64,000 nt of DNA, taken from IMG/VR virus record IMGVR_UViG_3300032318_000487, positions 1 to 64,000 of that record. One strand, 5' to 3'. Below are positions 2,427 through 39,648 of this stretch, in pieces; positions within the stretch are counted from its first letter, which is position 1, and the number at the start of each line of letters is the position of its first letter. The notes beneath the pieces are model-generated. The model was not told the DNA's origin. It saw only the letters and a program-made list of their open reading frames with translations, and ran no database searches. This DNA is from a virus (lineage: Duplodnaviria > Caudoviricetes). Position numbers and translations under genes: made by a program.

Positions 2427-3032
2427 TTAAATACCTGAGAAGAATACGTTGTCTCTTGGATCATCAAATGTGATTGAACCCATAGAAACGAGTGTTTCAG
2501 ATTGAATACGTCCAGCACGTCCACCAAGTGTTACAGTAAATGTGCCTAGAGATGTGTTTGCACCGTTTGTTCTAACTGTGATTGCAGATGCATTAGAGAA
2601 ACCACTACCACCATTTACAATTGTAAATGTACCATATGTATTAAGTGTTGAGTTTGATGAAGAACTCTGTAGTGTATTCTGAGCATTTGCAGTAGTGAAT
2701 GAAATGTTAGCACTTGTTCCCTGACCGTGTGCGCTTATATCAGCGATTGTTAGAAAACCAGCGGCATTGATGCCAGTGCCACCAGATACACTAATACTTG
2801 AGATAGGACCAGTACCAATTTTAATGCTTACCCAACCAGCGTGCACTGAACTATTTGATGCAGGGGCACGAACAGCTTCTTCAGTAGCTGATACACCTGC
2901 AACAATACCATAATACTTAGCAGTATTTGCTTCTGTACCATTGATAACTGAGTTTGAATAAGCATTTGATGTATTAGCATACAATGGTTTACCATTGCCT
3001 GTTGCGTAGTCGAAATTTTTCCATAATGGCAT
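2427..3032 (-). CDS. Virion structural protein (G/S/T/N-rich)
   Basis: MPLW N-terminus, HAGWV and GGRAGRIQSETLVSM motifs typical of a T4-like/cyanophage virion protein family; late-promoter-like AATAAATA just upstream. Confidence 0.7.
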   Translation of the reverse strand: MPLWKNFDYATGNGKPLYANTSNAYSNSVINGTEANTAKYYGIVAGVSATEEAVRAPASNSSVHAGWVSIKIGTGPISSISVSGGTGINAAGFLTIADISAHGQGTSANISFTTANAQNTLQSSSSNSTLNTYGTFTIVNGGSGFSNASAITVRTNGANTSLGTFTVTLGGRAGRIQSETLVSMGSITFDDPRDNVFFSGI

Positions 3033-3071
3033 TTTTTAAACTCCTTTAGAATTTTTTTATATTTATTGTTA

Positions 3072-5951
3072 TTAGTAACCAGTCATTGATGGCTTTTTTG
3101 GCTCAGTGTCGATCTCATTGGGTATTTCGCCAGTAAGTGTTTTTTTTCCGTTAACTTCACTGTTCTGATCTTTCTTAGTCTTAACTTTTTCAAAAGCTTT
3201 TTCTCTAGCTTCTTTCATAAAAGAAAATTCTTCATATCGATTCTTCATACTCTGATTGCCACCCCAGTTTCTGTTTTCTAATTTACCTAGAGTAGTTTTG
3301 AATGTATGTCTTTTGCGATTGCGTCTTGTACCAAATTGAGATCCAATTCTCTCTTCAAGATTTTCTTCATCAACTATACCATGATGTTGTTCTTTTTCAG
3401 AACGACCAACTGGCTTATTTGGACCTGAATAGTCTTGAAGATCAGCAGCAACACCACCTGTAAACTTTTCAGACTTTTGTTCACGATACATTCTTCTGAT
3501 CTTTTTCTCTAAAGACTCATCCATCATACCAGAACTTTTAAGATAGTCAGCGTTTGACTGCTGTGGTGCAGATGTCTGCTGTCTAGCAGGTCTTTGTGTT
3601 GATGATGCTGGTGCTGTTGGTGCAGCTTGTCTTTCAGCTCTTGCTTGGTTGTCAGCCCTAACAAAATCTGCACTTGTTGCGTCATCACCCTTATCTGACA
3701 TAGCTTGAAACATCTGTGATGATCTAGTTGGTTGAGCAGGTGCAGATGGTCTAGCTGACGATGTTGTAGCAGCAGGAGAAGGTGCAGGTCTTGCAGCAGG
3801 TGCAGCAGACGTTGAAGGTCTGTCTGTGCTGAATCCAGTTGCCTTTACAGGAGAATAAGATCCCATTGTTTTATTGCCTGTGTCACCTAAAGCATCTCTC
3901 ACGCTAACACTTGGTGTGTTACCTCTGAAGGTAGAAGGAGACAGATTAGGACCTGACGCAACCATAGAAGGAGTGCTTGATGTTCTACCAGTAGGTGGCG
4001 TCATTGATAGTGATCCATATGAAGATCCACCTGGTGGATTTGCTGTTCCAGCAGGCGGATTCATTGCTCGATCCATTGCCGCTCTATTTAATCCAACTTC
4101 TGTTGGCACGCGACTTGTCGGAGCAGGGGGTCTTGCGACATTTGTTGGTCCTCTTTCGCCGGGTCTTACTCCACCTATTCTGGCAGTTGAGGTTGTTGTT
4201 GGTTGATCTGCTCTTAATCCTGTTGATGTTGTTAAAGTACTACCATCATCAAATGTTTGTTGTCTTGTAACAATTCTTTCATTGATCAGTGCATCGAAAG
4301 CTTCTTCACCAAGATTCTTTCTAATCTCTTCCATTACAGCATCTAAATCGAAGTCTTCATCAACTTTTTTTTTTGAAAGACCTGCCTGACTCAAAGCAAT
4401 AGCAACAGCCTGCTTACGAGAAGTTACTTCAGGTCCTTCTTTCGAACCAGAGTTAAGTTCGCCTTTCTTAAATTCACCCATCACCTTTTCAATTTTTTTC
4501 TGTTGAGCAGGTGTAGCCTTTTCTTCATCCATCTTGCTCTTCATTGCTTCTTTTCTGGCAGCATTAATCTTATCGAGAGAAAGCTCATCAATCTGCTCGA
4601 CTTCTTCTTTAGCAAGTCTTTTTGCAGCGTTAACAATATAATCAACAGTTTTCCGTGACTCGATATCAAGTTCTTCACCGCGTTTTGATCCTGGACCTTC
4701 AGTTCCAGCAACTCTAGCTTGCGCACGGGCGCGGTCTGAAGCCTTCTTTACATAATCGATAAGAGCATTTTTTCCAGCTTTTGTATCACCAATTTCATCA
4801 AGCTGCTTTAAAGTTTCTTCAAGATTGGGTGGTCGTCTTGGAGGCATAGGATGATTTCTAGGTATCTCTGTCTTAGGCTGCTCAGGCTTATACTCAATCT
4901 CGTCCTTGTACTTAGGAGCGCCAGCGGCGCGAGGTGCAGCAAAGTCTGGATCAGAAGATGACTTATCTTCTTCATTTACCTTTTTCTTTTTTTCAGTTTT
5001 TGTAGCGAGAACTCTAGCCATAGTTGGAACGTTATATGGATCTCTTGGATCAATATAACCTGGCAAGTGTTTAAAACGAGATCCACCTGGTAATGCAAAG
5101 GGAGCAGTTCCGTCTGGTTTTTTACTGTTGATACCTAGTTTAGCTCCAGCAAGTTTATTAATACGATAGTCTCTTTTATTTACTCGATCATATTCATCAT
5201 CAGCTTTTTTAACTTCAGGATTTTCTGAATCTTTATCATGTTTTTGAAATGCTTTTCTAGCAGCAGCAGCAGCACGCTTTCTACTGTCAGTAGAAAGTTT
5301 CATTACTCTCTTGGCTAATCTTTGAGAAATTTCATCAAGCTGTTCTTCATCGAGTTCGTAATCTTCTCTCATCTTTTTCTTTTTTGAACTTGGCATATTA
5401 GCACCAGTCATGCCAGCAAGATCAGCCGCTGTACGACGATCTCCTGCTCTGGCAATACCTGTAACTCTTTTTTGAATGGTATCCATATCACGATCAGAAG
5501 GTCCACCCAAACCAACCATTTTCTTCAAACCGGCTATCATAATTTTACCACCAACAGAAGCCTTAGCTTTATCTACATATTTTTCTCGTTCACCTGGTGC
5601 TTTGATACCCTTGAGTTCATCAAGCTGTTCTTCTTCATCCTGCTTATTCATCTTTTTATTTCTCATGGCATTGCCAATAGCTTGACGACGATTTGCAAGA
5701 TACTTATCAGTTGAATGACCATGCTTGCCATCATTATTAATATCAGAGTCTTCTTGACCTACAGGATCGAGAGCTTCATCAAGAAGCTGCTCTAGCAATG
5801 CATCATAGTTTGCAAGATGCTCATGAGGAAGAGCATTACGTGAAGCAATGCCTAGTTCTTCACAGAGACCAGCTTCGACTCTACGACGAAGCTCATTCTG
5901 TTCCATAATCTTCTTTACGCTTTTTACTAATGGATCATTCTTCTTAAACAT
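3072..5951 (-). CDS. 959-aa mosaic internal head protein with repeated (Q)LDE linkers, DPVGQED motif, DUF6496-like module and S/T/P/A-rich low-complexity tract
   Basis: DPVGQEDSDINNDG..DKYLANRRQAI; EEQLDE/QIDE repeats; KVMGEFKKGELNSGSKEGPEVTSRKQAVAIALSQA (DUF6496-like). Confidence 0.7.
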   Translation of the reverse strand: MFKKNDPLVKSVKKIMEQNELRRRVEAGLCEELGIASRNALPHEHLANYDALLEQLLDEALDPVGQEDSDINNDGKHGHSTDKYLANRRQAIGNAMRNKKMNKQDEEEQLDELKGIKAPGEREKYVDKAKASVGGKIMIAGLKKMVGLGGPSDRDMDTIQKRVTGIARAGDRRTAADLAGMTGANMPSSKKKKMREDYELDEEQLDEISQRLAKRVMKLSTDSRKRAAAAARKAFQKHDKDSENPEVKKADDEYDRVNKRDYRINKLAGAKLGINSKKPDGTAPFALPGGSRFKHLPGYIDPRDPYNVPTMARVLATKTEKKKKVNEEDKSSSDPDFAAPRAAGAPKYKDEIEYKPEQPKTEIPRNHPMPPRRPPNLEETLKQLDEIGDTKAGKNALIDYVKKASDRARAQARVAGTEGPGSKRGEELDIESRKTVDYIVNAAKRLAKEEVEQIDELSLDKINAARKEAMKSKMDEEKATPAQQKKIEKVMGEFKKGELNSGSKEGPEVTSRKQAVAIALSQAGLSKKKVDEDFDLDAVMEEIRKNLGEEAFDALINERIVTRQQTFDDGSTLTTSTGLRADQPTTTSTARIGGVRPGERGPTNVARPPAPTSRVPTEVGLNRAAMDRAMNPPAGTANPPGGSSYGSLSMTPPTGRTSSTPSMVASGPNLSPSTFRGNTPSVSVRDALGDTGNKTMGSYSPVKATGFSTDRPSTSAAPAARPAPSPAATTSSARPSAPAQPTRSSQMFQAMSDKGDDATSADFVRADNQARAERQAAPTAPASSTQRPARQQTSAPQQSNADYLKSSGMMDESLEKKIRRMYREQKSEKFTGGVAADLQDYSGPNKPVGRSEKEQHHGIVDEENLEERIGSQFGTRRNRKRHTFKTTLGKLENRNWGGNQSMKNRYEEFSFMKEAREKAFEKVKTKKDQNSEVNGKKTLTGEIPNEIDTEPKKPSMTGY

Positions 5952-23806: not shown

Positions 23807-23882
23807 TGGCGGTCCCGGCAGGACTCGAACCTGCATATGACAGTTTAGAAGACTGTTGCCTTATCCATTAGACTACGGAACC
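23807..23882 (-). tRNA. tRNA-Arg(UCU)
   Basis: GGTTCCG acceptor, ACAGT-CTTCTAA-ACTGT anticodon arm, CCA. Confidence 0.93.
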
Positions 23883-24223
23883 TGATCTCTGTGTTCTTCT
23901 CGGTGACAGTTGGCACAAAGGCACTTACACTTATCTAGTTCAGCCTTTATCTTGTCCCAACTCCACAATCTCATTTTATTCCAGTCAGCATCTTTGCTGT
24001 TAGGATCAGTATGATGAAACTCAAGGGCGCCATAGTATCTATCATAACCACATGCCTCGCATTTACCACCTTTGTATCGTATAGCATCTAACTTGCGCTT
24101 TTTCCATCTTTCAATACAGTATTCATTGAAACACTCGCGGCATCTTGATTGCCACTTCTTTGCGTTCTTTTTGTATGCTGTATCTTCATTCAACTCTTTT
24201 TGACAACCAGAACAGACTTGCAT
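23873..24223 (-). mobile_element. HNH-type homing endonuclease gene; stop codon overlaps tRNA-Arg 5' end
   Basis: CEACGY...LEFHHTDP..K.....ELDKC.CLCANCHREEH. Confidence 0.8.
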
Positions 24224-24232
24224 TGAAACTCC

Positions 24233-24259
24233 TAGAATAGAAAATAAACTTCTATTCTA
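24233..24259 (-). promoter_or_regulatory. Perfect 10-bp hairpin abutting the RBS of the HNH gene
   Basis: TAGAATAGAA-N7-TTCTATTCTA immediately before GGAG; CTATATA late-promoter-like motif at the 5' arm. Confidence 0.6.
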
Positions 24260-24266
24260 TATAGTG

Positions 24267-24288
24267 TTCCGCTGATTGCTACGGAGCC
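24267..24288 (-). pseudogene. Degenerate 5' tRNA(Arg)-like fragment
   Basis: GGCTCCGTAGCAATCAGCGGAA resembles a tRNA 5' end and the downstream GGTTCCGTAG. Confidence 0.5.
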
Positions 24289-24299
24289 GTTATTCTGTT

Positions 24300-24328
24300 A
24301 TACTACATTATATATCTCACTCTGTCAA
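24300..24328 (-). promoter_or_regulatory. Sigma70 promoter TTGACA-17-TAGTAT
   Basis: Read directly from the sequence. Confidence 0.75.
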
Positions 24329-35273: not shown

Positions 35274-35539
35274 ATAACTTCAGCTCCCAATAGACGCCAA
35301 CCATCAATTGGTTGATCTTTGAACATATCATACATTTGACTCTTAGCTATATCATAGGCACTTTCCTTAGTCTTAGCGAGTACTATGATTTCTTTTTCTT
35401 CATAATAGTCTCTACGATAAGGTTTCAACTTTACTTTAAACTTCTTCATACCCTTGTTCTGATCTCTATACTGCTTCCAGTATCCATATGGCTTGTTTTG
35501 CCATATGTCTTCCATTTCTTCTTTAGTCAAGCCTATCAT
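35270..35539 (-). CDS. Hypothetical protein
   Basis: ORF track. Confidence 0.55.
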   Translation of the reverse strand: MIGLTKEEMEDIWQNKPYGYWKQYRDQNKGMKKFKVKLKPYRRDYYEEKEIIVLAKTKESAYDIAKSQMYDMFKDQPIDGWRLLGAEVI

Positions 35540-35828
35540 GATACTTGGTTTCCCATTCAGTTTGCTTCACTGGATCTTTCAATGGATACTTTTTACACAC
35601 TTCGAAGTAGTCTTTAGATGGTTCTCTTGGATTCATCTTATGATACTTAGTTGCTTTCTCAATTCGCTTTTGTTCCATTATCCTCAGATATTCTTCATCA
35701 GGAACACGACCGTCTCCAGTATACTTGCACCAGTCTGAGAAATAAACATTGTTGATGAATGTTTTACCAAAAATCCAGTCGTCAGACTTCGATGTGATCT
35801 TGTGGAACACGTCATAGTTATTTGACAT
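35523..35828 (-). CDS. Hypothetical protein
   Basis: ORF track. Confidence 0.5.
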   Translation of the reverse strand: MSNNYDVFHKITSKSDDWIFGKTFINNVYFSDWCKYTGDGRVPDEEYLRIMEQKRIEKATKYHKMNPREPSKDYFEVCKKYPLKDPVKQTEWETKYHDRLD

Positions 35829-35835
35829 TATATGA

Positions 35836-36555
35836 TTAGCCTTTGATTTGTGGATACTGAACGCTATATTCCATGCGAAGAATCATTTCTGTTTCTTGCC
35901 AACTCTTCACATGATAATACTGATCTGAAAGGATTGCAATATGAAAATCGTTTTCATCTTCGTTACATTTATCACCAAAGAAGATGATCTTTTTATCATC
36001 TTCAGTTATAAAAGGAAAAATCTGACCTTTGTCATTTCCTCTTAGATGGATGTCAATTCCTAAATCACCAGCAATGTAACAGTCTAGTCTGGGTAAAAGA
36101 GACCTAATCTTTCTAACAAGATATGCTCGTTCTTTAGTCTTTTTGTCCCATTCAATATATTCCTCACGTTGCTTCTTAGTTGCGTTTCTACCCAGAACTG
36201 AAAAGTTAACAAGTCCTGTTTTCTTTTCAAAGTGATAGCCAGTTCTGGTTGCGAAGAATGATCTGTTCAACAAGGTCTCAATGATATCTTTCTCATGGTA
36301 AGTTAAATCAAATCTGTTCGAATAGATTTTCTTACTATCAGAATGATACTCATTACCACCACATGTGAAAATGCCTTCACATGCTTTAATAAGATCAGGA
36401 CCGAGTTGACTCTCAGTCTGATCTAAATCGTTTCCGGTAACAATGTAAACTTTGTTCTTTAGACAGAAAGACTTAAAGAAGTGTTTAAAGTCTGTGTCCA
36501 TTTCTTTCTTGGAGGGTGTTAGTGTGCCGTCAACGTCGAAAACAAAGATATACAT
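35836..36555 (-). CDS. HAD-IIB phosphomannomutase-like enzyme (eukaryotic PMM type)
   Basis: FDVDGTLTP, TG.HFE..TGLVNFSVLGRNA, FFGDK....NDF. Confidence 0.82.
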   Translation of the reverse strand: MYIFVFDVDGTLTPSKKEMDTDFKHFFKSFCLKNKVYIVTGNDLDQTESQLGPDLIKACEGIFTCGGNEYHSDSKKIYSNRFDLTYHEKDIIETLLNRSFFATRTGYHFEKKTGLVNFSVLGRNATKKQREEYIEWDKKTKERAYLVRKIRSLLPRLDCYIAGDLGIDIHLRGNDKGQIFPFITEDDKKIIFFGDKCNEDENDFHIAILSDQYYHVKSWQETEMILRMEYSVQYPQIKG

Positions 36556-36571
36556 TCATACCTCAAATATA

Positions 36572-36645
36572 TGGAGCGGGCAACAGGATTCGAACCAGTA
36601 TCTCTAGCTTGGAAGGCTAAGGCACAACCTTTATACCATACCCGC
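36572..36645 (-). tRNA. tRNA-Gly(UCC)
   Basis: GCGGGTA acceptor, TTAGC-CTTCCAA-GCTAG anticodon arm, T-arm, CCA. Confidence 0.9.
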
Positions 36646-37143
36646 GAGTTTTTCTCTGTGCTTTCGTTTGATAGCTTCAGAGATGTTTTTTCTATGTTCA
36701 TCAGATTTGGGTTTATCTTTTAGGGCGATAGAATTTTTGATTGAAATGGCATTCTTTTGTTCTTCAGAAATAGGAATACCTTTTTTATGAGTATTGCCAA
36801 AATGTGCCATTCTTTTCTTAGATTCTTCCGTATGTCGTTTACCTTTGAATTTGGGTATATCATTTGAATTGATATACCCAAATCCTCCATTACCACCTTC
36901 ACATAAATTATAAGACGATTCTGACAAAATAACAAGTTCTCTTTCTTTGTTATTCATCTCTTCTTCATTATCAAACACAAACAAAATTTCTTTCCTAAAT
37001 GATTCTTTACCATACTTTTTGATAGCTTGTTTCAATAGTTTTCCAGAACCAAGATATGAATCATTTATATCTTTTGTTTTATGTTTTCCTATATAAAAGC
37101 GATCATTCACAGTGTTAACAGTTTTATAAACAATATAAAACAT
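36631..37143 (-). mobile_element. GIY-YIG (Seg-like) homing endonuclease with NUMOD3 repeats
   Basis: YIVYKTVN..NDRFYIGKH...YLGSG, YNL.EGG.GG, HTEESKKRM, KSDEHRKNISEA. Confidence 0.88.
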
Positions 37144-37176
37144 AAGGCTGACACTCTACCCCTGAGTTATACCCGC
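37144..37176 (-). pseudogene. 5' half of a tRNA-Gly, truncated in the anticodon loop directly before the endonuclease ATG
   Basis: GCGGGTA-TA-ACTC-AGGGGTA-GAGT-G-TCAGC-CTT|ATG; perfect D-stem and the same first 8 nt as the intact tRNA-Gly(UCC). Confidence 0.85.
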
Positions 37177-37293
37177 ATTTTTATTCTTATCTGTTTTAGG
37201 CTTTAGTTTTGGATCAACAGGTTTGATTTCTTCTTTTGGAGGAACGAAGTCAGCACTTGCAGGTCTAAACCAACTTTTAATCCATTTCCACAT
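37156..37293 (-). CDS. 45-aa Lys/Pro-rich late protein whose stop codon lies in the tRNA fragment
   Basis: Manual translation MWKWIKSWFRPASADFVPPKEEIKPVDPKLKPKTDKNKNAGITQG*; GGAG RBS and CATAAATA upstream. Confidence 0.6.
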   Translation of the reverse strand: MWKWIKSWFRPASADFVPPKEEIKPVDPKLKPKTDKNKNAGITQG

Positions 37294-37340
37294 TGAAAAC
37301 TCCTGTGTTGCTTTCAATGTATTTATGAAAATATATCATT

Positions 37341-37529
37341 CTATGTGTTGGATGTCAATAACAATCTTCTTTTTTCCGATTCGATATTGATCTGTTCCTT
37401 TCGCTGATTATCCGCACCGAACCATTCCGTAATCTCATCGTAAGTTCTTCCACAACCTATACACACTAAAAGCTCTTTCAATTCAGTATAGGAACAAATC
37501 TTAACACAAGGAGAATTACTTCTTGTCAT
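37341..37529 (-). CDS. DUF1289-family Cys-rich protein
   Basis: SPCVKIC....CIGCGRTYDEITEW. Confidence 0.85.
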   Translation of the reverse strand: MTRSNSPCVKICSYTELKELLVCIGCGRTYDEITEWFGADNQRKEQINIESEKRRLLLTSNT

Positions 37530-37641
37530 TATTTTCCTTCTTCTTTGTGTTCTTTTCCCTCAACTTCTGAAGTCTCTCTCTTGCTGCTTGAGACTTTTCC
37601 TTATGTGAACTTAGAGTTGATCTCTTCTTTTCCTCAGACAT
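37516..37641 (-). CDS. Basic hypothetical protein (41 aa)
   Basis: Manual translation MSEEKKRSTLSSHKEKSQAARERLQKLREKNTKKKENNDKK. Confidence 0.45.
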   Translation of the reverse strand: MSEEKKRSTLSSHKEKSQAARERLQKLREKNTKKKENNDKK

Positions 37642-38416
37642 ATTCTTTCCTCTTTATTAACTTTGCTGATAAGTTGGTGACTGTATCTAAGTTTTTGACT
37701 GAATACACTTTAGCGTTTGAATCACTACAGACCCACATCTCATCTCGAAATCTATCTGGTGCTGTTCTCAACCAAGAGTCTCTAGTTTTTGATTGAAGGT
37801 TTTTCCACCAGTCAATGGTTGATGGATCAGGTAACCTTCTTAAGTAGCTTGAGTTTGACCACCAGAAGTTACCACTGAAGTGTGGACAAGGTTCGTCAAA
37901 GTAATTAACACCAGCAACATCATGAGTATTTAGCGACTCAACACATCTTTCCCAGTTTTCGATAACACCCCAATTCAAGAACTGTCTCCAGTAATAGTAG
38001 TTCTTGAATGTACCGATGTTTCTCTTTTTAAGATGGTTATCAACTGAAGTTATGCCCTTCGTGTGTAGATACAAAGCAGTGAAGACATCATTCTGAGAAT
38101 CATTCCATATTCTTTGAAGAATGACGTTTTCAGTGATTGTCTCTGAGTTGTTGATGCCACTTAGCATGACACCATCATTTGAGTGATTGTTCTTGAACAC
38201 AATCAACTTTGCATTTGGTAGTGCAAAGCTCATACAAAGATCAGCAAATATCTTGGTTCTCTCATCTTGCTGAGAGACGCATGTTATCGTAATATCATCA
38301 AACGATGAAAGAAGATGATGGTCTTCCATCATCTTCATCTGTTCCATGAATGGATATACCCAAGTTGAATACTCATCACTTAGGTATACATGATAGTACA
38401 AATACTTTTTCATCAA
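37634..38416 (-). CDS. Putative glycosyltransferase-like protein
   Basis: LYLHTKG.S...WRQFLNW, HFSGNFWW, DEMWV; located in the glycan cluster. Confidence 0.55.
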   Translation of the reverse strand: MMKKYLYYHVYLSDEYSTWVYPFMEQMKMMEDHHLLSSFDDITITCVSQQDERTKIFADLCMSFALPNAKLIVFKNNHSNDGVMLSGINNSETITENVILQRIWNDSQNDVFTALYLHTKGITSVDNHLKKRNIGTFKNYYYWRQFLNWGVIENWERCVESLNTHDVAGVNYFDEPCPHFSGNFWWSNSSYLRRLPDPSTIDWWKNLQSKTRDSWLRTAPDRFRDEMWVCSDSNAKVYSVKNLDTVTNLSAKLIKRKEYV

Positions 38417-39648
38417 TCTACAATCTTAACTTCAGGAAAGTATTTGATAAATCTATCATACTCATTGTCTCGAATGCCCTTGATCTTGTCTCTGATCTCA
38501 TCAAAGAAGTTCCATGCTAATGGTACGAATAGAGTGGTTCCCTTCAACTTAAGAATCTCTTTCTGTGAGACAACTGGAATACTAGAACCAGGTGTGAATC
38601 TACCTTGCTTTAGTGGATTATCATCGACAATGAAATCTAGATCCAACTTAGCATAGTTCAACAGAGTCATACCCTTTGCTGCTGCACCATATCCAACGAC
38701 ATTCCAATCAATCATGCCTTGCCGAACAAAATCTGTTTGATGCTTCAACTCAGACACGATATCATTACAACGTTGTGCGTATCGTACATATGTCTCAGGA
38801 CTGTAGAGTCCATTAGATTGCTCTTCCTTAATTAGAAGATCAACGTTTCTTCCATCAAACTTCTTTCGAATCACGAAGACAAAGCTAGTACCATGAATTG
38901 GCATGTAGTCAACACCAACCAGATACAGACCAGCTCTCTTACATAACTTATCCATTGACTGAATATTGAAGAATGATACATGCTCATGATAGATTGTATC
39001 AAACTCATTGTTCTTGATCATGTTAGCTTGTGATGTTTGAATGATGAGTGTGCTATCATCATGCATAACACTCTTGGCAGTCAAGAGAAAGTTTAGTGGA
39101 TTAGGACCATGTGCAAAGACATTCTGTGCTGTTATGACATCAAAACTTAGCTTTGCTTTGTTAATTCTCTCTGCAAAATTATGATCAAACCATTCACAGA
39201 AAATAGAGTGACCCTTCTTTGAAGAAACTTCTTCAAGATTCTTTGCTGGATCAACACCAAATGTGATGAAACCCAAATCTTTGAAATAATCTAGCTGAGT
39301 ACCATCATTACAACCAACATCTAGTACAAGCTTACCCTTTGTTGTCTTTACTGCAAACTCTGCGAAAGTCTTCATGTGTGAGTGCATCGTCTTTGACGTG
39401 CCACTAACATAAAGATAATCATTGAACATCAACTCAGGATTAACTGAGTGTGTAAGTTGCACATGATAGCAATCTTCACAATGATTGATCGCAAGAGGAT
39501 ATTCTTCTTGCACATCATCTCTCTTTAACTTGAATGAGTTTGCAAGTGGTTGCTTACCCAAGTCAAGGGTAAGCTTTAAATTGCTTGAACCACATGCGAC
39601 GCAGTGGTCAAGATGTTTTACATTATCTGACGATTCTAGGTGAGACAC
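38413..39648 (-). CDS. NDP-hexose C-methyltransferase-like (Zn-binding N-terminus + class I SAM MTase + C-terminal domain)
   Basis: CVACG..L..LDLGKQPLANS, CEDCYHVQL, DVGCNDG, YHEH..FF, YGAAAKG, LAWNF. Confidence 0.9.
   Translation of the reverse strand: MSHLESSDNVKHLDHCVACGSSNLKLTLDLGKQPLANSFKLKRDDVQEEYPLAINHCEDCYHVQLTHSVNPELMFNDYLYVSGTSKTMHSHMKTFAEFAVKTTKGKLVLDVGCNDGTQLDYFKDLGFITFGVDPAKNLEEVSSKKGHSIFCEWFDHNFAERINKAKLSFDVITAQNVFAHGPNPLNFLLTAKSVMHDDSTLIIQTSQANMIKNNEFDTIYHEHVSFFNIQSMDKLCKRAGLYLVGVDYMPIHGTSFVFVIRKKFDGRNVDLLIKEEQSNGLYSPETYVRYAQRCNDIVSELKHQTDFVRQGMIDWNVVGYGAAAKGMTLLNYAKLDLDFIVDDNPLKQGRFTPGSSIPVVSQKEILKLKGTTLFVPLAWNFFDEIRDKIKGIRDNEYDRFIKYFPEVKIVD

What the first reader, a model, noticed from the sequence alone, without database searches (positions are those of the whole stretch)
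36572..37293. GIY-YIG endonuclease inserted into a tRNA-Gly anticodon loop, carrying its own replacement tRNA
Seen in the sequence, 5'->3' on the minus strand: a 45-aa ORF; a perfect 33-nt 5' half of tRNA-Gly (GCGGGTATAACTCAGGGGTAGAGTGTCAGCCTT) that stops at anticodon position 34; the endonuclease ATG immediately after it; and an intact tRNA-Gly(UCC). The intact tRNA has a different D-arm (GGTATAAAGGTTGTGCC versus AACTCAGGGGTAGAGTG), and its first 15 nt encode the endonuclease's last codons and stop. The upstream ORF's stop codon lies inside the leftover half, which would explain why the half was kept. Established: free-standing Seg/Mob endonucleases of T-even phages spread by cleaving endonuclease-free alleles while their own allele is resistant. 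Inference: this is an intron-less 'split-and-replace' homing cassette that cuts tRNA genes, with the recoded 5' half giving self-immunity.
Basis: partly seen in the sequence, partly recalled or inferred. Interest (0 to 1): 0.82.

Follow-up and report, generated by a model that had tools for sequence, protein, structure and literature searches.

The report
Endonuclease cassette replacing a phage tRNA-Gly
A selfish DNA-cutting-enzyme gene that carries its own spare glycine tRNA has landed in the anticodon loop of this T4-like phage's original glycine tRNA gene, leaving its front half behind; relatives show the same trick in both directions between two versions of the tRNA, a way for such elements to invade an RNA gene without an intron that I could not find described.

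Summary
On the minus strand lie a 45-codon ORF, a perfect 33-nt 5' half of a tRNA-Gly(UCC) gene, a 170-aa Seg-like GIY-YIG endonuclease gene and an intact tRNA-Gly(UCC) that overlaps its last 15 nt.

Comparison with other viral contigs supports the core reading:
- The nuclease gene plus tRNA is a discrete 572-bp module, 89.5% identical in an unrelated phage.
- That phage's nuclease-free relatives carry one contiguous tRNA-Gly at the site.
- Every orphan half found is followed by a homologous nuclease gene.
- Reciprocal cassettes exist (type-B half, nuclease, type-A tRNA), one of them at the syntenic locus of a relative of this phage.
- The same layout occurs in tRNA-Gly(GCC) and tRNA-Met genes, always broken at nt 34/35.

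- The "odd" D-arm is not recoded. It belongs to a common natural allele (type B) that travels whole as cargo.
- The half is not kept because of the upstream ORF. Halves persist in all seven other distinct contexts (five where the upstream DNA was read have no such ORF).

Cleavage and self-immunity remain inferred. The window's copy has lost its own promoter/ribosome-site leader. I found no published description. This scan has noted the same kind of element on other DNA.

The parts
37156..37293 (-). ORF45. It is a small Lys-rich ORF whose last 7 codons and stop are supplied by the tRNA half. It has no family match and it is uncertain whether it is a real gene. Its stop lies 12 nt before the nuclease ATG, so termination-reinitiation is possible (inference).
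   Evidence: no Pfam or PHROG hit; no tblastn match in syntenic relatives
37144..37176 (-). Leftover 5' half (nt 1-34 by tRNA numbering) of the resident type-A tRNA-Gly(UCC) gene. It serves as the left border of the insertion.
   Evidence: 33/33 identical to intact tRNA-Gly(UCC) genes in 25 viral contigs; only orphan tRNA piece in the window
36631..37143 (-). Free-standing Seg-like GIY-YIG homing endonuclease gene, 170 aa. It has an N-terminal catalytic domain (about residues 1-95) and a C-terminal NUMOD3-like DNA-binding repeats. Unlike all relatives, it has no leader of its own.
   Evidence: dN/dS 0.076 against L090
36572..36645 (-). Cargo tRNA-Gly(UCC) of type B, the functional copy. Its first 15 nt encode the nuclease's last four sense codons and stop.
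36572..36596 (-). 3' 25 nt of the tRNA (nt 50-74). These are identical to the type-A allele, making the tRNA a B/A chimera. The inferred right-hand crossover lies between nt 48 and 50. A U.U mismatch sits in the T stem at nt 49/61 (coordinate 36597 with 36585).
   Evidence: mismatch flagged; the only T-stem mismatch among 27 type-B sequences
36572..37143 (-). The mobile module as delimited by similarity: nuclease ATG through the tRNA 3' end.
   Evidence: 89.5% nt identity to L090/L091 over exactly this span, with no similarity in the flanks

Best explanation
**What it is.** The window holds an occupied homing site. The phage once had a single type-A tRNA-Gly(UCC) gene between ORF45 and the PMM-like gene. 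A roughly 570-bp selfish module entered it. The module is a Seg-like GIY-YIG endonuclease gene fused by a 15-nt overlap to a complete type-B tRNA-Gly(UCC).

**Inferred sequence of events.**
1. During co-infection the nuclease makes a double-strand break in the nuclease-free type-A allele, probably in or near the anticodon loop.
2. The break is repaired from the donor.
3. On the left, the resident gene survives up to nt 34. This is the leftover half.
4. On the right, the crossover fell inside the tRNA itself, in the T arm. The working tRNA is therefore type B for nt 1-48 and type A for nt 50-74.

**Consequences.**
- The phage keeps a tRNA-Gly(UCC), so the invasion costs little and needs no intron.
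- The occupied site no longer contains an intact type-A gene, and the cargo allele differs in the D arm and variable region. The carrier is therefore presumed resistant.
- Related nucleases with a different C-terminal module do the reverse: they split type B and carry type A. The two alleles can thus replace each other in turn.

**Shown versus inferred.**
- Shown: the insertion, its borders, its modularity and horizontal spread, purifying selection on the nuclease, and the reciprocity.
- Inferred: that this nuclease makes the break, where it cuts, and that the cargo allele resists it.
- Uncertain: whether the window's copy is still expressed, because its promoter/SD leader is deleted.
For: 1. 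**Empty versus occupied site.** L091 (nuclease 92% identical) aligns with L004/L010/L012 at 83-86% on both sides. Those contigs have one intact type-A tRNA where L091 has half + 34-nt leader + nuclease + type-B tRNA. The left junction falls after nt 34/35.
2. **Discrete module.** Identity between the window and L090/91 is 89.5% over exactly 37143..36572 and nil outside it. The genomes are otherwise unrelated, which indicates horizontal transfer.
3. **Strict association.** All 16 orphan Gly(UCC) halves in about 300 loci (7 distinct loci including the window) are directly followed by a homologous nuclease gene. None occurs without one.
4. **Recurrence at the same tRNA position.** The layout occurs in type A, A2 and B of Gly(UCC), in Gly(GCC) (L093, L099) and in Met(CAT) (L112). 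The cargo always has the same anticodon but a different body.
5. **Reciprocity at a syntenic locus.** L094/95 share MTase-p260-DUF1289 with the window but carry type-B half + nuclease + type-A tRNA + a leftover 3' end. The syntenic L171/L173 has one intact B-like tRNA and no nuclease.
6. **Chimeric tRNA.** Nt 50-74 are type A. The window has the only T-stem mismatch among 27 type-B sequences. Six of its 8 differences from L090's tRNA cluster in the T arm.
7. **Nuclease under purifying selection.** dN/dS is 0.076 against L090, with 37 synonymous and 15 non-synonymous differences.
8. **C-terminal module tracks the allele that is split.** L013 versus L094: N-terminal 85%, C-terminal 30% identity. 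L094 versus L096: 72% and 60%. Window versus L013: 76% and 57%.
9. **Precedent.** T4 SegB is a GIY-YIG homing endonuclease in a tRNA cluster. It cuts tRNA genes of segB-less phages, and its stop codon abuts tRNA-Arg (PMC2330249).
Against: - There is no biochemical or genetic test. The cut site and the resistance of the cargo allele are inferred.
- No nuclease-free close relative of this particular phage was found.
- The window's nuclease has no leader, promoter or Shine-Dalgarno sequence of its own. It may be silent.
- The link between the C-terminal module and the target is confounded. That module is physically joined to the cargo tRNA, so linkage alone could produce the correlation.
- SegB recognises the T loop and cuts at tRNA 3' ends. 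The constant left junction could therefore be inherited rather than mark the cut.
- The chimeric window tRNA has regained the type-A T loop, so any immunity cannot rest on that element.
- The chimera call rests on about 5 informative positions.
- Pfam GIY-YIG scores are just below the curated cut-offs.
Confidence: 0.8

Rival explanations
1. **Interrupted tRNA gene.** The nuclease ORF lies in an intron (group I or other), or the tRNA is split. The mature tRNA is then made by joining the upstream half to the downstream 3' half.
For: The break is in the anticodon loop at nt 34/35. As I recall, the classic cyanobacterial tRNA-Leu group I intron sits at that position (my own knowledge). Bacterial and phage group I introns often carry GIY-YIG genes (PMC3984707 abstract).
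Against: - No ribozyme was found. An Rfam scan of 35500..38500 at E up to 10 gives only the tRNA.
- There is no room for one. The half abuts the ATG in the window, relatives have only 29-34 nt there, and the ORF's stop is inside the next tRNA.
- The downstream tRNA is complete, with its own 5' half. It belongs to a family with 11 covarying pairs, including acceptor pairs that involve that 5' half.
- The upstream half would mispair with the downstream anticodon-stem strand (C-A at 28-42, read).
Confidence: 0.02
2. **Tandem genes, not targeted replacement.** The phage originally had type-A and type-B tRNA-Gly genes side by side. A free-standing nuclease gene, of the kind that sits between tRNA genes, then inserted between them and deleted the 3' half of the upstream gene by accident.
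For: Many homologues do sit between two complete tRNA genes, 40-77 nt after one and 2-30 nt before the next. Aeromonas phage Ah1 has one between tRNA-Ala and tRNA-Gly.
Against: - Nuclease-free relatives of L091 have a single tRNA-Gly at the site, not a tandem pair.
- The break is at the same nucleotide in at least 8 contexts and three isoacceptor families.
- The cargo always matches the anticodon of the broken gene.
- The 3' end of the window tRNA is type A, as expected if the resident gene's own 3' end was reused.
Confidence: 0.06
3. **Fossil cassette.** The insertion happened as described, but the window's copy is now dead. Having lost its promoter, hairpin and ribosome-binding leader, the nuclease is no longer made, and the locus simply encodes a slightly damaged tRNA-Gly.
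For: - The 29-34-nt leader with a TATAAATA- or CTAAATA-type late-promoter motif and GGAGG, present in all seven other split cassettes, is precisely absent.
- The window contains no TATAAATA at all.
- The tRNA has a T-stem mismatch.
Against: - The ORF is intact, and dN/dS against L090 is 0.076.
- The half shows no decay (33/33), which argues for a recent event.
- ORF45's stop lies 12 nt before the ATG and could allow reinitiation (inference).
Confidence: 0.25
4. **Generalist nuclease.** Like SegB, the enzyme recognises generic tRNA features such as the T loop, cuts many tRNA genes and protects its own genome only by low expression. The type-B cargo is a hitch-hiker and not a resistant allele.
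For: - SegB recognises the conserved T-loop motif and cuts nine tRNA genes in T2L and five in T4 itself. Protection is attributed to tight expression control and to RNase P cutting at the stop codon (PMC2330249).
- The same stop/tRNA overlap exists here.
- The window's chimeric tRNA carries the canonical T loop.
Against: - The cargo always has the same anticodon as the broken gene but a different body.
- Reciprocal A/B cassettes have divergent C-terminal modules.
- The invariant parts of both alleles are the D arm and anticodon arm, not the T arm.
- Only tRNA-Gly is broken in the window, although it holds 13 other tRNA genes.
Confidence: 0.12

Closest known systems
Phage T4/T6 SegB, a free-standing GIY-YIG homing endonuclease in the tRNA gene cluster (PMC2330249; PMC13096335)
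   Same: - GIY-YIG catalytic domain plus NUMOD3-type DNA-binding region.
- Free-standing gene among phage tRNA genes.
- Its targets are tRNA genes of nuclease-free relatives.
- Neighbouring tRNA genes are co-converted.
- Its stop codon abuts or overlaps the next tRNA, so tRNA processing would truncate the mRNA.
- Relatives of the window enzyme have a hairpin-type leader.
   Different: - SegB sits between intact tRNA genes and recognises the generic T loop, cutting at 3' ends of many tRNAs.
- Here the gene lies inside a broken tRNA gene at nt 34/35 and carries a same-anticodon replacement.
- It appears to be allele-specific, and reciprocal forms exist.
- Identity to annotated Seg enzymes is only 41-45%.
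Mitochondrial mobile endonuclease ORFs (mORFs) that create gene hybrids: Allomyces atp6; Glomus atp6, atp9, cox2, nad3 (PMC3630166)
   Same: An endonuclease ORF inserts into a gene and brings a foreign copy of part of that gene. The gene stays functional and the displaced native part is left as a remnant. The inserted copy is more divergent than the native one, which indicates horizontal origin.
   Different: - Those cases involve protein-coding genes in fungal mitochondria, a replaced 3' (C-terminal) part, and mostly LAGLIDADG enzymes.
- Here the target is an RNA gene in a phage.
- A whole tRNA is carried.
- The displaced piece is the 5' half.
Intron-encoded GIY-YIG homing endonucleases such as I-TevI (structures 1MK0/1LN0)
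   Same: - Two-domain architecture.
- Homing by double-strand-break repair with co-conversion of flanks.
- The occupied allele is immune because the recognition site is interrupted.
- The catalytic domain is the only PDB match of the family profile (weak, E 0.59).
   Different: There is no intron and no splicing. The function of the interrupted gene is rescued by a carried duplicate instead of by RNA splicing.
Homing endonuclease insertions that split phage protein genes (mobE in Aeh1 nrdA, mobA in T4 gene 39/60, seg in gene 43 of phage 25; review PMC2988022)
   Same: A free-standing endonuclease gene is inserted within a conserved gene, without an intron.
   Different: In those cases the two gene pieces both stay functional and their products reassemble. 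Here one piece is discarded and a complete substitute is supplied.
Integrase-borne islands and prophages that insert into tRNA genes and restore the tRNA 3' end
   Same: A tRNA gene is the target, the gene stays functional through a carried copy, and a displaced fragment is left (my own knowledge).
   Different: - Those elements use a tyrosine integrase and att sites, restore only the 3' part, and are kilobases long.
- Here the module is 572 bp, has no integrase, and the 5' half is the part displaced.

Membership tests
GIY-YIG (Seg-like) homing endonuclease | N-terminal GIY-YIG catalytic domain with conserved Tyr motifs, Glu and Asn | tested here: met
   - PHROG phrog_314 'homing endonuclease', E 2.9e-39.
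- Pfam SegE_GIY-YIG 24.7 bits (cut-off 25) and GIY-YIG 17.3 bits (cut-off 22.6), both just below threshold.
- Columns invariant across 23 homologues include Y6, Y17-I18-G19, E67, E69 and Y78-N79.
- The only PDB matches of the family profile are the I-TevI catalytic domain, over its full length, at a weak E of 0.59.
GIY-YIG (Seg-like) homing endonuclease | C-terminal modular DNA-binding region (NUMOD3 or similar) | tested here: inconclusive
   - NUMOD3 scores 16.1 bits, E 0.011, below the 20.4 cut-off for the window protein.
- The reciprocal L095 enzyme scores 29.6 bits, E 6.7e-7.
- Three repeats of the G-K-x-H/S-x-E-x-K type are visible in the alignment.
GIY-YIG (Seg-like) homing endonuclease | Free-standing gene with presence/absence polymorphism among otherwise collinear relatives | tested here: met
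   L091 is occupied and L004/L010/L012 are empty, with flanks 83-86% identical. This was shown for the 92%-identical sibling, not for the window's own lineage.
GIY-YIG (Seg-like) homing endonuclease | Horizontal spread of the gene with flanking markers (co-conversion) | tested here: met
   A module 89.5% identical sits in unrelated flanks. The window tRNA is a B/A chimera.
GIY-YIG (Seg-like) homing endonuclease | Site-specific cleavage of the nuclease-free allele and resistance of the occupied allele | not testable with these tools
   This needs an enzyme assay on cloned type-A, type-B and junction DNA.
GIY-YIG (Seg-like) homing endonuclease | Biased (super-Mendelian) inheritance in mixed infection | not testable with these tools
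   This needs phage crosses.
tRNA (the downstream gene as a working tRNA-Gly) | Cloverleaf with covariation, UCC anticodon, CCA end | tested here: met
   - ARAGORN call and Rfam 54.2 bits.
- On 27 type-B sequences, 99.5% of cells are paired and 11 pairs have changes on both sides; 0 of 500 shuffles reach this.
- The window copy has one U.U mismatch in the T stem.
Group I (or other self-splicing) intron in a tRNA anticodon loop | Ribozyme core between the exons, and exons that join into one tRNA | tested here: not met
   There is no Rfam intron match at E up to 10. Zero to 34 nt lie between the half and the ORF, and the ORF ends inside a complete tRNA.
Mitochondrial-type mORF gene hybrid | Endonuclease ORF plus a carried foreign copy of part of the target gene, with the native part displaced | tested here: met
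   The logic is the same. It is an analogy of design, not homology: the host, gene type and mostly the enzyme family differ.

The most novel reading that the evidence does not exclude
Two sister lineages of one nuclease family share a catalytic domain but carry different DNA-binding modules. They drive a perpetual flip-flop between two tRNA-Gly(UCC) alleles in T4-like phages, because each allele is the cargo of one lineage and the target of the other. The same design has radiated to tRNA-Gly(GCC), tRNA-Met and probably other tRNAs, always entering at nt 34/35. If so, part of the sequence diversity of phage tRNA genes is made and maintained by homing-endonuclease conflict rather than by translational needs. 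'Carry your own resistant copy' would then be a general, intron-free route for selfish nucleases into essential RNA genes.
Probability: 0.45. Interest if true: 0.88.

Novelty: new variant of a known kind. Interest (0 to 1): 0.78.

Why it matters
Homing endonucleases are thought to enter conserved genes in one of three ways: inside a self-splicing intron or intein, next to the gene as a free-standing copy, or by splitting a protein gene whose halves reassemble. This locus and its relatives show a fourth solution, for an RNA gene: break it and supply a complete, differently sequenced copy with the same anticodon.

It matters for four reasons:
- **tRNA diversity.** It gives a concrete mechanism for exchange and diversification of phage tRNA alleles. 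That is topical because phage tRNAs are now known to counter tRNA-cleaving host defences, and SegB was recently shown to reshape tRNA loci under such pressure (PMC13096335).
- **A natural specificity experiment.** The reciprocal A/B pairs are near-identical catalytic domains joined to different binding modules. This makes them a natural experiment on how GIY-YIG specificity is switched.
- **Annotation.** Orphan tRNA halves next to small nuclease genes mark homing events and are not assembly errors.
- **Engineering.** The module is small (572 bp) and could inspire markerless allele-replacement tools in phage engineering.

Tried and rejected
- **Group I intron or split tRNA:** rejected (Rfam scan; no space for a ribozyme).
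- **Search for a nuclease-free close relative of this phage:**
  - The PMM-like neighbour in IMG/VR gave only 37-38% relatives without the locus.
  - The p260 neighbour in IMG/VR and in metagenomes gave relatives of 30-57% identity. One of these (L171 = L173) has a single intact B-like tRNA-Gly, and the rest have no tRNA nearby.
  - So the empty site of the window's own lineage was not found.
- **Single-sequence PDB search:** gave nothing meaningful.
- **Junction pattern scan in IMG/VR:** mostly chance hits.
- **An I-TevI-like CNNNG cleavage motif 23-25 nt upstream of the junction:** it fits type A (nt 11-15) but has no counterpart in type B, so I dropped it as evidence.
- **My check for a second tRNA-Gly(UCC) in the 79-kb record:** the pattern was badly designed and missed even the known gene. 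The statement 'only copy' therefore rests on ARAGORN for the 64-kb window only.
- **Cultured phages:** no close cassette; the best nuclease matches are 41-45% identical. The Aeromonas phage Ah1 homologue sits between intact tRNAs.
- **Literature:** five full-text searches and four papers read found SegB, split protein genes and mitochondrial mORFs. None described a tRNA gene split by a nuclease that carries a replacement tRNA.
Full report
**What is in the sequence**

Reading the minus strand, the elements lie in this order:
- A 45-codon ORF with ATG at 37293 and stop at 37158..37156.
- A 33-nt stretch (37176..37144) that is the exact 5' part of a tRNA-Gly(UCC) gene up to tRNA position 34.
- With no spacer, the ATG (37143) of a 170-codon ORF that ends at 36631.
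- An intact tRNA-Gly(UCC) at 36645..36572, whose first 15 nt are the ORF's last four sense codons and stop.

ARAGORN calls the tRNA and Rfam scores it at 54.2 bits.

The surrounding genome is an IMG/VR virus record of 79 kb, estimated 47% complete. It carries T4-type replication genes: a family-B polymerase, a gp41-like helicase, a gp46-like nuclease subunit and a cobS-like gene.

**The half is a real gene remnant**

- The 33-mer occurs exactly in 26 viral contigs.
- In 25 of them it is the 5' half of an intact, 75-nt tRNA-Gly(UCC). I call this allele type A; an example is L004 6516..6590.
- In the 26th contig (L013) it is again an orphan half. There it is followed by a 31-nt leader, a 69%-identical nuclease gene and an overlapping intact tRNA-Gly(UCC).

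**The 'odd' tRNA is a natural second allele**

- The D-arm/anticodon-arm block of the window's intact tRNA occurs in 61 viral contigs.
- In 59 of them it is a free-standing tRNA-Gly(UCC) with no homologous nuclease, although L074 has a different GIY-YIG-like ORF ending in its D-loop. I call this allele type B; an example is L030 9970..10043.
- On 27 distinct type-B sequences the cloverleaf is 99.5% paired, and 11 pairs change on both sides.
- The two alleles share the first eight nucleotides and 13 nt around the anticodon. They differ in the D arm, variable loop and T arm.

The nuclease carries a whole tRNA of the other natural type.

**The nuclease**

- It matches the PHROG homing-endonuclease family at E 2.9e-39.
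- It matches annotated Seg-like GIY-YIG enzymes of T4-like phages at 41-45% identity.
- It lies just under the Pfam cut-offs for SegE_GIY-YIG and GIY-YIG.
- A profile of 23 homologues finds only the I-TevI catalytic domain in the PDB, and weakly.
- The C-terminal 70 residues contain three NUMOD3-like repeats. NUMOD3 is sub-threshold in the window protein and significant in L095.
- Against its closest relative (L090) there are 37 synonymous and 15 non-synonymous differences, giving dN/dS 0.076. The ORF has therefore been kept functional.

**The nuclease plus tRNA is a mobile module**

- Window and L090/L091 are 89.5% identical over exactly 37143..36572, from the nuclease ATG to the tRNA 3' end. 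They are unrelated outside that span.
- L091 is collinear with L004, L010 and L012 at 83-86% identity on both sides.
- Those three contigs lack the nuclease and have one contiguous type-A tRNA-Gly.
- L091 instead has a type-A-like half, a 34-nt leader, the nuclease and a type-B tRNA.

I could not find an empty-site relative of the window's own lineage.

**Association and recurrence**

- In about 300 fetched loci, all 16 orphan Gly(UCC) halves are followed directly by a homologous nuclease gene. These represent 7 distinct loci including the window.
- No locus has a half plus a tRNA without a nuclease.
- The same layout occurs in two tRNA-Gly(GCC) contexts (L093, L099) and one tRNA-Met context (L112).
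- The break is always at nt 34/35, and the cargo always has the same anticodon but a different body.
- Longer homologues (195-246 aa) sit between intact tRNA genes, as T4 segB does.

**Reciprocity**

- L094/L095, L096-L098 and L226 carry the mirror image: a type-B half, a leader, a homologous nuclease and an intact type-A tRNA.
- In two of these lineages an 11-nt leftover of the displaced 3' end follows.
- L094/L095 share the upstream gene order with the window (methyltransferase, 260-aa protein, DUF1289). The two opposite cassettes therefore occupy the same locus in related phages.
- A further syntenic relative (L171 = L173) has a single intact B-like tRNA and no nuclease.

The catalytic domains do not sort by direction, but the C-terminal modules do:

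| Pair | N-terminal identity | C-terminal identity |
|---|---|---|
| L013 vs L094 (opposite directions) | 85% | 30% |
| L094 vs L096 (both type-B splitters) | 72% | 60% |
| Window vs L013 (both type-A splitters) | 76% | 57% |

This fits a swap of DNA-binding modules. Linkage of that module to the adjacent cargo tRNA could give the same pattern.

**The window tRNA is a chimera**

- Nt 1-48 match the L090 cargo apart from two substitutions.
- Nt 50-74 (36596..36572) are identical to type A.
- The T stem carries a U.U mismatch. It is the only T-stem mismatch among the 27 sequences.
- Six of the eight differences from L090's tRNA fall in the 17-nt T arm.

This is what a right-hand crossover inside the tRNA would leave when donor and recipient share no other homology. 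It also shows that the resident gene was type A.

**What is unusual about the window copy**

- All seven other split cassettes have a 29-34-nt leader.
- In five of the seven other cassettes the leader begins CATG. All seven contain a T4-late-promoter-like TATAAATA or CTAAATA, and six carry a GGAGG or GGAG site (not L013). In L091 the ribosome site, and in L095 the start codon, folds into a small hairpin.
- This is the control design described for I-TevI and proposed for SegB.
- In the window the leader is precisely missing, and the window has no TATAAATA anywhere.
- Expression would have to come from read-through and perhaps reinitiation after ORF45's stop 12 nt upstream. That is an inference.
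- As with segB, RNase P processing of the tRNA would cut the nuclease mRNA before its stop codon.

**Why the half is kept**

Halves of the same length persist in L013 (5 nt after a tRNA-Asn) and in L095, where an ORF stops 14 nt before the half; for L091, L096, L226, L093, L099 and L112 I did not check for an upstream ORF. The simpler reading is that the half is what the insertion leaves behind, and that it can serve as the left homology arm in later homing.

**Mechanism, with status**

- Shown: the insertion and its borders, modular horizontal spread, purifying selection, reciprocity, and the chimeric right junction.
- Inferred:
  - that the encoded nuclease makes the break in the nuclease-free allele;
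  - that it cuts in or near the anticodon loop;
  - that the cargo allele and the interrupted site resist it.
- For the cut site, the constant left junction, and a leader starting CATG in five of the seven other contexts, argue for the anticodon loop. SegB's T-loop recognition is a caution against it.
- The invariant parts of both alleles are the D and anticodon arms, which makes them the likelier recognition region.

**Comparison with the known**

- The nearest enzyme precedent is SegB (PMC2330249; PMC13096335).
- The nearest design precedent is the mitochondrial mobile ORFs that carry a foreign gene end and displace the native one (PMC3630166).
- The T4 mobile-DNA review lists only intergenic Seg/Mob genes and split protein genes (PMC2988022).
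- Five full-text searches found no description of a tRNA gene split by a nuclease that carries a replacement tRNA.
- Earlier notes of this scan report the same kind of cassette in other phages and in uncultured bacteria. I used them as leads only.

**Verdict**

- This is a new variant of free-standing homing endonuclease biology.
- The reciprocal allele swap is the most interesting and most testable feature.

Noticed in passing
window 23807-24300 (minus strand): A 116-aa HNH-motif ORF (24223..23873) ends 10 nt inside tRNA-Arg(UCU) (23882..23807). About 50-75 nt upstream of its ATG lies a short stretch whose first 10 nt match the tRNA-Arg 5' end 9/10. It is followed by an 11-bp hairpin and GGAG. 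This may be a second, decayed case of the same layout with a different nuclease family. It was flagged by another first-reader note (e1-5851812). The fragment is too short for my tRNA-library scan to detect.
   Followed up: partly
L013 6897-7190 (minus strand): A second homologue of the nuclease (54% identity over the N-terminal 98 residues) lies between tRNA-Pro and tRNA-Trp in the same contig that carries the type-A-splitting cassette.
   Followed up: no
L013 7490-7575 (minus strand): Between the cargo tRNA-Gly and tRNA-Lys lies an approximately 75-nt stretch with tRNA-like ends that ARAGORN does not call. It may be a degenerate tRNA.
   Followed up: no
L100-L114 and others, about 60 nt upstream of each nuclease ATG: Free-standing homologues sit 40-77 nt after a complete tRNA. 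They lie behind a long perfect hairpin whose loop holds TATAAATA, the same late-promoter-in-hairpin design reported for T4 intron endonucleases.
   Followed up: partly
L189 (Aeromonas phage Ah1, MG250483.1 97682-98203): An unannotated homologue of the nuclease (44.7% identity) lies between tRNA-Ala and tRNA-Gly(UCC) in a cultured Straboviridae phage. It could serve as a laboratory entry point to the family.
   Followed up: partly
L074 about 2890-3390 and L076 about 200-715: Two unrelated ORFs also run into a type-B tRNA-Gly and stop at the TAG/TAA of its D-loop: a 161-aa GIY-YIG-like protein of another subfamily and a 164-aa protein. The D-loop stop codon is therefore used repeatedly by upstream genes.
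   Followed up: no
L017 11372-11730 and L021 4803-5161: Viral contigs that carry the type-A tRNA-Gly also encode a tmRNA gene and a tRNA that ARAGORN in L017 reads with a four-base anticodon (in L021 the corresponding gene is called tRNA-Ile(tat)).
   Followed up: no
window, whole: There is no TATAAATA on either strand in 64 kb (2.5 expected by chance), although the phage has T4-type replication genes. Its late promoters, if T4-like, must use another consensus.
   Followed up: no
window 36750-37250: G+C dips to 0.30-0.33 over the nuclease gene, against 0.35-0.39 in the flanks. This is consistent with foreign origin.
   Followed up: no
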